Below are positions 32,601 to 35,600 of a stretch of DNA of 64,000 bases, one piece after another (position 1 is the first letter of the stretch; each line of letters opens with the position of its first letter). Where the stretch lies: NCBI RefSeq assembly GCF_045037415.1, contig NZ_CP173438.1; one strand, written 5' to 3'. The stretch is from Escherichia coli. Lineage in GTDB: Bacteria > Pseudomonadota > Gammaproteobacteria > Enterobacterales > Enterobacteriaceae. The position numbers are program-made.

Positions 32601-35600
32601 GGTGGGCTACGCGCTGGCGGTAACGCATCCTCAGGCAGGGAATCTGGGCGGCGGTGGTTTTATGCTGATCCGCTCGAAAAATGGCAATACCACGGCTATC
32701 GATTTCCGCGAAATGGCACCCGCCAAAGCGACCCGCGATATGTTCCTCGATGATCAGGGCAACACGGACAGCAAAAAATCACTCACTTCGCATCTGGCTT
32801 CCGGCACACCCGGTACGGTAGCGGGTTTCTCGTTGGCGCTGGATAAATACGGCACCATGCCGTTGAATAAAGTGGTGCAACCGGCGTTTAAACTGGCACG
32901 CGATGGTTTTATCGTTAACGACGCGCTGGCTGACGATCTCAAAACCTACGGCAGTGAAGTGCTGCCGAACCACGAAAACAGCAAAGCTATCTTCTGGAAA
33001 GAGGGCGAACCGCTGAAAAAGGGCGACAAGCTGGTGCAGGCGAACCTGGCAAAGAGCCTGGAGATGATTGCCGAAAACGGCCCGGATGAATTCTACAAAG
33101 GCACGATAGCGGAACAGATTGCCCAGGAGATGCAGAAAAACGGTGGCTTGATCAGCAAAGAAGATTTAGCGGCATATAAAGCGGTCGAACGCACACCGAT
33201 AAGCGGCGATTATCGCGGGTATCAGGTTTACTCCATGCCACCGCCATCTTCCGGCGGTATTCATATCGTACAAATCCTCAATATTCTGGAAAACTTCGAT
33301 ATGCAGAAGTACGGCTTTGGCAGCGCCGACGCGATGCAAATCATGGCAGAAGCTGAGAAATACGCCTACGCCGACCGCTCGGAATATCTTGGCGACCCGG
33401 ATTTTGTCAAAGTACCGTGGCAGGCGCTGACCAATAAAGCCTATGCCAAATCTATTGCCGATCAAATCGATATCAATAAAGCGAAGCCATCCAGCGAAAT
33501 TCGTCCTGGCAAGCTTGCGCCTTATGAGAGTAATCAAACTACCCATTACTCAGTAGTGGATAAAGACGGTAACGCCGTGGCGGTGACCTATACACTGAAC
33601 ACCACCTTCGGTACGGGCATTGTCGCGGGCGAGAGCGGTATTTTGCTCAATAACCAGATGGATGATTTCTCCGCCAAACCAAGCGTACCGAACGTTTACG
33701 GGCTGGTGGGCGGCGATGCCAACGCCGTCGGGCCGAATAAACGCCCGCTGTCGTCGATGTCACCAACCATTGTGGTCAAGGATGGTAAAACCTGGCTGGT
33801 CACCGGAAGCCCAGGCGGTAGCCGGATTATCACCACTGTGCTGCAAATGGTGGTGAATAGCATCGATTATGGAATGAACGTCGCCGAAGCGACCAATGCG
33901 CCGCGTTTCCACCATCAGTGGTTGCCGGACGAGCTGCGTGTCGAAAAAGGGTTTAGCCCGGATACGATCAAGCTGCTGGAAGCAAAAGGTCAGAAAGTGG
34001 CGCTGAAAGAGGCGATGGGCAGTACACAAAGCATTATGGTTGGGCCGGACGGTGAGCTGTACGGTGCATCCGACCCGCGCTCGGTGGATGATTTAACGGC
34101 GGGGTATTAATATCTTAAGCCCTCTCCCGGTAGGTGAGGGCTTAAATGACAAACGTAGATTGCAAATTCTCTATTTCACACGCGCCATATAATACGCATC
34201 GACATATTCACCGTTTCGTAATGCGTACTTCTTGCCAGTCCCTTCAATCTCAAAGCCAAATTTTTTATAGACCTTAATTGCTGGCGCGTTATCGACGAAC
34301 ACCGTTAGCTCGATACGATCTACCCGCAACCAGTTGTCGCACATTTCAATCATCTCTCGCATCAGGGCGCTGGCGACGCCGCGGTTCTTCCAACGGGAGT
34401 CGACACAGATACCAAAATCGGCAACATGACTGCGGCGTGGGCGTTGTTGCACGTCAATGGTGAGATGGCCTACGACGATTCCATCAATACAGGCGACTAA
34501 CTGCTTGATGCCAGGGCGAGCGGTGAGTCGTTCCAGCCACATTTGTTCTGAAGGATGAGGCACCTGTAGCGTGTTGTAATACACCTCCGGCTGGGCGTGA
34601 ATCTGCCTGATGGCCTCGTAATCGCGTGTTTCTGCGTGGCGTATTACTATCTCACTCATTCCTTTGTCCTCTTTGGGGTAAATGTCCCTTTCAACATCAT
34701 TGACTTTCAAATGCGAGTCAAATGCATTTTTTTGCAAAAAGTGTTGGACAAGTGCGAATGAGAATGATTATTATTGTCTCGCGATCAGGAAGACCCTCGC
34801 GGAGAACCTGAAAGCACGACATTGCTCACATTGCTTCCAGTATTACTTAGCCAGCCGGGTGCTGGCTTTTTTTTTGATCTTTCGTTCTCAATTTATCCTC
34901 GGGAAGTGCTTGTGTTCGTTATGCGCACTCCAGTAGGAACCACGTCCGCTTTGCGCTAAGGTGTAAATAACCACCTTAAAAAGGACGAAATCATGGTCAT
35001 TAACTGCGCCTTTATTGGCTTCGGCAAAAGCACCACCCGTTACCATCTGCCGTATGTACTTAACCGCAAGGATAGCTGGCATGTCGCGCATATTTTTCGC
35101 CGCCATGCGAAGCCGGAAGAACAGGCCCCCATTTATTCCCATATCCATTTCACCAGCGATCTCGACGAAGTGCTAAACGATCCCGATGTTAAGCTGGTTG
35201 TCGTCTGCACCCACGCGGACAGCCACTTCGAGTACGCGAAGCGCGCGCTGGAAGCCGGGAAAAATGTGCTGGTCGAAAAACCGTTCACTCCGACAATTGC
35301 GCAGGCGAAAGAGCTGTTTGCACTGGCGAAAAGCAAAGGGCTGATCGTTACGCCGTATCAGAATCGTCGCTTTGATTCCTGCTTCCTGACAGCGAAAAAA
35401 GCGATTGAAAGCGGCAAGCTGGGAGAGATTGTCGAAGTGGAAAGCCATTTTGACTATTACCGCCCGGTGGCAGAAACCAAACCGGGGCTGCCGCAGGATG
35501 GCGCGTTCTATGGCCTTGGTGTGCATACGATGGACCAGATTATTTCTCTGTTCGGTCGCCCGGATCACGTCGCTTATGACATCCGCAGCCTGCGTAATAA

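What the first reader, a model, noticed from the sequence alone, without database searches (positions are those of the whole stretch)
34753..34875. RyhB sRNA with Fur box and intrinsic terminator
An exact RyhB-like sequence on the plus strand is preceded by a Fur-box-like AT-rich dyad and ends in a GC hairpin plus T9. This is a functional RNA gene that a six-frame ORF track cannot show, and it confirms the yhhY-yhhX intergenic identity.
Basis: partly seen in the sequence, partly recalled or inferred. Interest (0 to 1): 0.3.

Follow-up and report, generated by a model that had tools for sequence, protein, structure and literature searches.

The report
Ordinary E. coli ryhB iron-sparing sRNA
This is the well-known E. 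coli small RNA gene ryhB, with its Fur-repressed promoter and its terminator, identical base for base to the K-12 reference copy, so it is correctly identified but not new.

Summary
The observation and the interpretation both hold. Window 34781-34875 (+) is identical at all 95 positions to K-12 ryhB (b4451). The whole yhhY-yhhX intergenic region differs from K-12 at only two positions, both downstream of the terminator. Rfam RF00057 (RyhB) matches full-length at 34810-34874 with 83.1 bits against a gathering score of 55, and it is the only Rfam family hit in the 64 kb.

- **Fur box:** a 19-bp site at 34760-34778 matches the consensus at 16/19. It is the only such match in the window, with none in 100 shuffles. 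It overlaps the -10 hexamer TATTAT at 34769-34774.
- **Terminator:** a 7-bp hairpin at 34849-34867 is followed by exactly nine T's, 34867-34875.
- **Flanking genes:** yhhY (a GNAT acetyltransferase, minus strand) and yhhX (a GFO/IDH/MocA oxidoreductase, plus strand).
- **Conservation:** the 123-nt interval is at least 99% identical in 5,419 of the 5,424 complete E. coli genomes that carry it.
- **Target pairing:** RyhB nt 38-46 is a perfect 9-nt antisense to sodB -4..+5.

The only correction is that the first 28 nt of the stated interval (34753-34780) are promoter and operator, not RNA. The feature is already known and of low interest.

The parts
34745..34750 (+). -35-like hexamer TGGACA of the ryhB promoter
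   Evidence: Consensus scan: 5/6 match, with an 18-nt spacer to the -10 hexamer. It is the only promoter-like site in 34600-35050, against 0.4 expected from shuffles. Identical in K-12.
34754..34772 (.). Second, weaker Fur-box register, shifted 6 bp from the main site (part of a Fur site cluster)
   Evidence: 14/19 match to the Fur consensus. Chen et al. 2007 (PMC2189734) describe a cluster of overlapping Fur sites in front of ryhB.
34760..34778 (.). Main Fur box (operator) GAGAATGATTATTATTGTC, overlapping the -10 hexamer
   Evidence: 16/19 match on the minus strand and 15/19 on the plus strand. Unique in 64 kb, with 0 of 100 shuffles matching. The K-12 site has the same sequence and binds Fur in a gel shift, scoring 25.2 bits (PMC2189734).
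34769..34774 (+). -10 hexamer TATTAT
   Evidence: Consensus scan. It lies 6 nt upstream of the start of the K-12-annotated transcript.
34781..34875 (+). ryhB gene as annotated in K-12 (95 nt including the full T9). The RNA is usually quoted as about 90 nt (34781 to about 34870; that length is from my own knowledge)
   Evidence: 95/95 identity to b4451.
34810..34874 (+). Segment matched by the Rfam RyhB covariance model RF00057 (conserved core plus terminator)
   Evidence: 83.1 bits against a gathering score of 55, model positions 1-67 of 67.
34818..34826 (+). Target-pairing core GACAUUGCU (RyhB nt 38-46)
   Evidence: Perfect 9-nt Watson-Crick antisense to sodB -4..+5, across the start codon. 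In 2,000 shuffles, 35 reach 9 nt or more anywhere.
34849..34875 (+). Rho-independent terminator and Hfq-binding module: 7-bp hairpin (34849-34867) plus T9 (34867-34875)
   Evidence: Terminator scan and direct count. The hairpin also appears in the MFE fold. Morita et al. 2015 (PMC4509938) give a RyhB polyU length of 9 and show that the terminated 3' end is needed for Hfq binding.
34171..34659 (-). Flanking gene yhhY (GNAT N-acetyltransferase), divergent from ryhB
   Evidence: RefSeq annotation of a record 100% identical to the 1001-nt query. Pfam PF00583, E = 4.9e-18.
34993..36030 (+). Flanking gene yhhX (GFO/IDH/MocA oxidoreductase), 117 nt downstream of the ryhB T-run and on the same strand
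   Evidence: RefSeq annotation. Pfam PF02894, E = 5.6e-47, and PF01408, E = 3.8e-31. Distance.

Best explanation
This is the chromosomal ryhB gene of an E. coli strain, the Fur-repressed, Hfq-dependent 'iron-sparing' small RNA.

When iron is plentiful, Fe2+-Fur binds the operator at 34760-34778, which overlaps the -10 hexamer, and blocks transcription. When iron is scarce, Fur leaves and RNA polymerase starts at G34781. It terminates in the T9 run after the 34849-34867 hairpin, giving an RNA of about 90-95 nt. Hfq binds the hairpin together with the U tail.

The single-stranded core, including nt 38-46 (34818-34826), pairs with the translation-initiation regions of mRNAs for non-essential iron proteins such as sodB. 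Pairing blocks translation and triggers RNase E-dependent co-degradation of the mRNA and the sRNA.

Shown here: sequence identity to K-12 ryhB, the covariance-model match, the positions of the operator, promoter and terminator, synteny, near-invariance across E. coli, and antisense complementarity to sodB. Taken from the literature on the identical K-12 sequence and not tested here: Fur binding, iron-dependent expression, Hfq binding and target regulation.
For: - 95/95 identity to K-12 b4451, with identical DNA from the yhhY start codon through the terminator.
- Rfam RF00057 at 83.1 bits against a gathering score of 55.
- A unique Fur box at 16/19, with 0 of 100 shuffles matching, overlapping the -10 hexamer.
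- The same K-12 Fur site was gel-shift-confirmed at 25.2 bits, and ryhB was stated to be Fur-repressed and located between yhhX and yhhY (PMC2189734).
- A terminator hairpin plus T9. The polyU length of 9 and the Hfq dependence on the terminated 3' end are reported in PMC4509938.
- Synteny with yhhY and yhhX.
- At least 99% identity in 5,419 of 5,424 genomes that carry it.
- A 9-nt perfect antisense match to sodB -4..+5.
- The iron-sparing role, about 50 targets, sodB repression and shiA activation are reported in PMC4666370.
Against: Nothing substantive.
- The MFE of the 90-nt RNA is no lower than that of shuffled sequences (z = -0.67), so thermodynamic stability alone would not have flagged it.
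- The 9-nt sodB complementarity is only moderately unusual as a bare length statistic: 35 of 2,000 shuffles (1.75%) reach 9 nt or more somewhere. Its weight comes from sitting exactly on the start codon.
- No expression data exist for this strain.
Confidence: 0.98

Rival explanations
1. The region encodes a small protein. Two mechanical ORFs run through the sRNA on the same strand: 34682-34936 (84 aa) and 34774-34959 (61 aa).
For: Both ORFs appear in the six-frame list.
Against: Neither has any Pfam match. A 1-bp indel at 34904 between this strain and K-12 changes the C-terminus and stop codon of both ORFs, so neither reading frame is conserved within the species, while the RNA portion is invariant. 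Both ORFs would have to be translated across a strong intrinsic terminator. The 61-aa ORF starts with TTG inside the Fur box and promoter.
Confidence: 0.01
2. The transcript is mainly an iron-regulated 5' leader of yhhX. On this reading the hairpin plus T9 acts as an attenuator, and the sRNA is a by-product.
For: ryhB and yhhX are on the same strand, 117 nt apart. About 20% of polymerases read through the ryhB terminator during normal growth in a reporter system (PMC4509938). The Fur site was first assigned to yhhX in an in vivo selection (PMC2189734).
Against: Termination is the major outcome and is enhanced under inducing stress, and only the terminated form binds Hfq. The terminated RNA has many validated trans targets. 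The only differences from K-12 in this intergenic region lie in the 117-nt spacer downstream of the terminator. This is at most a secondary role, not an alternative identity.
Confidence: 0.03
3. It is a divergent paralogue or decayed copy, for example a second RyhB-like gene of the kind seen in Salmonella, and not the orthologous ryhB.
For: None. Related sibling sRNAs do exist in other enterobacteria (review PMC4211561, listed but not read).
Against: The sequence is 100% identical to K-12 ryhB, including the promoter. It sits in the orthologous yhhY-yhhX position. The median E. coli genome has one copy, and there is only one Rfam RyhB hit in the window.
Confidence: 0.005

Closest known systems
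E. coli K-12 MG1655 ryhB (b4451; Rfam RF00057 RyhB)
   Same: Identical at all 95 annotated nucleotides. The promoter, Fur box, terminator and upstream intergenic DNA back to the yhhY start codon are also identical. Same flanking genes and same relative orientation.
   Different: Nothing differs within the gene or its promoter. Two polymorphisms lie downstream of the terminator: 34899 is T where K-12 has A, and 34904 is an extra A. On the far side of yhhY, the roughly 3.4-kb K-12 segment yhhZ-yrhA::IS1E-yrhD-yrhB is absent.
Pseudomonas PrrF1/PrrF2 (Rfam RF00444), the functional analogue of RyhB
   Same: Also a Fur-repressed sRNA (this comparison rests on my own knowledge). A weak match spans the promoter and RNA at 34745-34876.
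   Different: The match scores 21.3 bits against a gathering score of 90, E = 0.24, so this is not a member of that family.

Membership tests
RyhB sRNA (Rfam RF00057; E. coli ryhB orthologue) | Covariance-model score at or above Rfam's gathering threshold, covering the full model | tested here: met
   83.1 bits against a gathering score of 55, model positions 1-67 of 67, at 34810-34874 (+).
RyhB sRNA (Rfam RF00057; E. coli ryhB orthologue) | Sequence identity to the reference gene K-12 b4451 | tested here: met
   95/95 identical.
RyhB sRNA (Rfam RF00057; E. coli ryhB orthologue) | Located in the yhhX-yhhY intergenic region, on the same strand as yhhX and divergent from yhhY | tested here: met
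   RefSeq annotations and Pfam domains of the flanking ORFs. The literature statement is in PMC2189734.
RyhB sRNA (Rfam RF00057; E. coli ryhB orthologue) | Fur operator overlapping the promoter | tested here: met
   A 16/19 match to the consensus at 34760-34778, overlapping the -10 hexamer at 34769-34774. Unique in 64 kb, with 0 of 100 shuffles matching. This tests sequence only.
RyhB sRNA (Rfam RF00057; E. coli ryhB orthologue) | Rho-independent terminator with a long U tail (7 or more), which forms the Hfq-binding module | tested here: met
   A 7-bp hairpin plus T9. The criterion comes from PMC4509938.
RyhB sRNA (Rfam RF00057; E. coli ryhB orthologue) | Core region antisense to the sodB translation-initiation region | tested here: met
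   RyhB nt 38-46 is a perfect 9-nt complement of sodB -4..+5. In 2,000 shuffles, 35 reach 9 nt or more anywhere.
RyhB sRNA (Rfam RF00057; E. coli ryhB orthologue) | Iron- and Fur-dependent expression, Hfq binding, and repression of sodB/sdh and other targets in vivo | not testable with these tools
   Known for the identical K-12 sequence (PMC2189734, PMC4666370 and PMC4509938). Not measured for this strain.
PrrF sRNA (Rfam RF00444) | Covariance-model score at or above the gathering threshold | tested here: not met
   21.3 bits against a gathering score of 90, E = 0.24.

The most novel reading that the evidence does not exclude
The only differences from K-12 in this intergenic region are T34899 and the extra A34904, both in the 117-nt spacer between the ryhB terminator and yhhX. 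They might change how much terminator read-through reaches yhhX, or how it is translated, giving a strain-specific, iron-responsive ryhB-yhhX co-transcript. Nothing here supports this beyond the gene arrangement and the published figure of about 20% read-through.
Probability: 0.03. Interest if true: 0.15.

Novelty: already known. Interest (0 to 1): 0.05.

Why it matters

It does have some practical value:
- It anchors the window to the E. coli ugpQ-ggt-yhhY-ryhB-yhhX-yhhW-gntR region.
- It marks a real functional gene that six-frame ORF tracks miss. The PGAP-annotated RefSeq records inspected here also leave it out: 'none' was listed under the match in all 12 sampled records, and there was no ncRNA feature in the two records inspected in detail.

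Tried and rejected
- **Full-length RNA duplex prediction.** RNA.duplexfold of RyhB against sodB -60..+40 gave one meaningless end-to-end duplex at -35 kcal/mol, because it ignores intramolecular structure, and 67 of 1,000 shuffles did as well. I replaced it with a longest-perfect-complement test.
- **MFE significance.** For the 90-nt RNA, z = -0.67, which is not significant. The terminator and the 5' hairpin are predicted, but stability is not diagnostic.
- **Tandem Repeats Finder.** On 34700-34950 it returned nothing. The 2 x 9-nt ACATTGCTC/ACATTGCTT repeat in the core is too short for it.
- **Coding reading of the overlapping ORFs.** Rejected: no Pfam hits, and the frames are not conserved against K-12.
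- **Other RNA families.** The permissive Rfam scan of the intergenic region (E up to 1) gave only a sub-threshold PrrF match.
- **Founding paper.** Massé & Gottesman 2002 (PNAS) could not be read, because it is not held under the PubMed id or the PMC id I tried. Mechanism statements are therefore cited from later open-access papers.
- **Invalid calls.** Searches were rejected search terms, and one search was a file-path error.

Full report
**1. Observation**

The plus strand at 34753-34875 reads GTGCGAATGAGAATGATTATTATTGTCTC followed by GCGATCAGGAAGACCC...AGCCAGCCGGGTGCTGGCTTTTTTTTT.

A whole-window scan of all 4,227 Rfam families returned a single hit above gathering score. It was RF00057 RyhB at 34810-34874 (+), scoring 83.1 bits against a gathering score of 55, E = 3.6e-14, with the full model covered. 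A permissive re-scan of the intergenic region alone added only a sub-threshold PrrF match at 21.3 bits against 90.

**2. Identity to the reference gene**

K-12 MG1655 annotates ryhB (b4451) as a 95-nt ncRNA at 3580922-3581016 (minus strand), between yhhX and yhhY.

I aligned the whole intergenic region, window 34660-34992, against the reverse complement of the K-12 region. There are only two differences in 333 columns, at window 34899 (T where K-12 has A) and 34904 (an extra A). Both lie downstream of the terminator. Window 34781-34875 equals b4451 exactly.

**3. Promoter and Fur box**

The consensus scan finds one sigma-70-like promoter in 34600-35050. It consists of TGGACA at 34745-34750, an 18-nt spacer, and TATTAT at 34769-34774, a 10/12 match, against 0.4 expected from shuffles.

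The canonical 19-bp Fur box GATAATGATAATCATTATC, allowing up to 3 mismatches, matches once in the 64 kb, at 34760-34778. None of 100 shuffles produced a match. The site matches at 16/19 on one strand and 15/19 on the other, and is 14/19 self-complementary. A 6-bp-shifted register at 34754-34772 matches at 14/19.

The operator covers the -10 hexamer, which is the classic geometry for repression by occlusion.

Chen et al. 2007 (PMC2189734) report a 25.2-bit Fur site cluster directly in front of K-12 ryhB. They confirmed it by gel shift, and they state that ryhB lies between yhhX and yhhY and is Fur-repressed. They place the site at -15. The centre of my 19-mer is at -12 from the annotated start. 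I attribute the 3-nt difference to different site-centre and annotation conventions, but I did not resolve it.

**4. Terminator**

The terminator is a 7-bp stem with 5 G-C pairs and a 5-nt loop at 34849-34867, followed by a T run. A direct count gives exactly nine T's, 34867-34875, then G. The MFE fold shows the same hairpin.

Morita et al. 2015 (PMC4509938) give the RyhB polyU length as 9. They show that the terminated 3' end is required for Hfq binding, and that about 20% of polymerases read through during normal growth.

**5. Context**

A 1001-nt query around the feature is 100% identical to many E. coli chromosomes, which annotate yhhY and yhhX under the match. In strain SK1144 the gene order is ugpQ, yhhA, ggt, yhhY, [ryhB, unannotated], yhhX, yhhW, gntR, gntK.

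Pfam confirms that the flanking ORFs are a GNAT acetyltransferase and a GFO/IDH/MocA oxidoreductase.

**6. Conservation**

The 123-nt interval is found in 5,424 of 5,426 complete E. coli genomes. It is at least 99% identical in 5,419 of them and is always on the chromosome.

By contrast, the 1-kb query that includes the coding flanks is at least 99% identical in only 1,068 genomes. The sRNA and its promoter are therefore more conserved than the neighbouring genes.

**7. Mechanism**

RyhB nt 38-46 (GACAUUGCU, window 34818-34826) is a perfect 9-nt antisense of sodB -4..+5, using the sodB sequence fetched from K-12. In 2,000 shuffles, 35 reach 9 nt or more somewhere, so the length alone is only moderately unusual. 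The position over the start codon is what fits the known mechanism.

The literature on the identical K-12 RNA supports the rest of the mechanism (PMC4666370):
- expression under iron limitation;
- repression of non-essential iron-protein mRNAs (the 'iron-sparing' role), with about 50 targets;
- Hfq- and RNase E-dependent co-degradation of sRNA-mRNA hybrids in general;
- sodB repression and shiA activation used as positive controls.

These functional steps are inferred for this strain from sequence identity. They were not measured here.

**8. Rival readings**

- *Coding ORFs.* Two mechanical ORFs (84 aa and 61 aa) overlap the sRNA. Neither has a Pfam match, and the 1-bp indel relative to K-12 breaks the frame of both. 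Rejected.
- *A yhhX leader or attenuator.* This is possible only as a minor, secondary role.
- *A paralogue or decayed copy.* Excluded by the identity and the synteny.

**9. Verdict**

The feature is the already-known E. coli ryhB gene. Interest is low.

Noticed in passing
window 34111-34170 (between the ggt stop at 34110 and the yhhY stop at 34171): In this strain ggt and yhhY are convergent neighbours separated by only 60 bp. That spacer contains the inverted repeat AAGCCCTC...GAGGGCTT, which looks like a bidirectional terminator. K-12 has about 3.4 kb inserted here: yhhZ, yrhA interrupted by IS1E, yrhD and yrhB. The contiguous short junction is found in 1,218 of 5,426 complete E. coli genomes. 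In most of the others the query splits at this point.
   Followed up: partly
L005 (NZ_CP195448.1, strain 23AR0151), alignment A2 columns 128-136; corresponds to window 34817-34835: The RyhB pairing core contains a 9-nt direct repeat, ACATTGCTC ACATTGCTT. One clinical E. coli strain has a third copy, a 9-nt tandem expansion inside the target-pairing region. It is the most divergent ryhB allele among the 5,424 genomes, at 93.2% identity. I did not assess whether this changes target pairing.
   Followed up: partly
window 34753-34875 and its matches in RefSeq genomes: All 12 sampled RefSeq records list 'none' as the annotated feature under the 123-nt match. One of them is an MG1655-derived assembly. 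The feature tables of two further PGAP records show no ncRNA between yhhY and yhhX. In this collection I saw ryhB annotated only in the curated K-12 reference NC_000913.3. I did not check this systematically.
   Followed up: partly
window 34899 and 34904: These are the only two differences from K-12 in the 333-bp yhhY-yhhX intergenic region: T in place of A, and one extra A. Both lie in the 117-nt spacer between the ryhB terminator and the yhhX start codon.
   Followed up: no
window 34745-34876 (+): A sub-threshold Rfam match to PrrF, the Pseudomonas Fur-regulated sRNA, spans the promoter plus the RNA. It scores 21.3 bits against a gathering score of 90, E = 0.24. It is probably chance or shared composition (an AT-rich operator plus a terminator) and not homology.
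   Followed up: no
E. coli genome collection: Two of 5,426 complete E. coli genomes have no match to ryhB at all, and a few genomes have up to 3 places. I did not examine which genomes these are, or whether the causes are deletions, large duplications or assembly problems.
   Followed up: no
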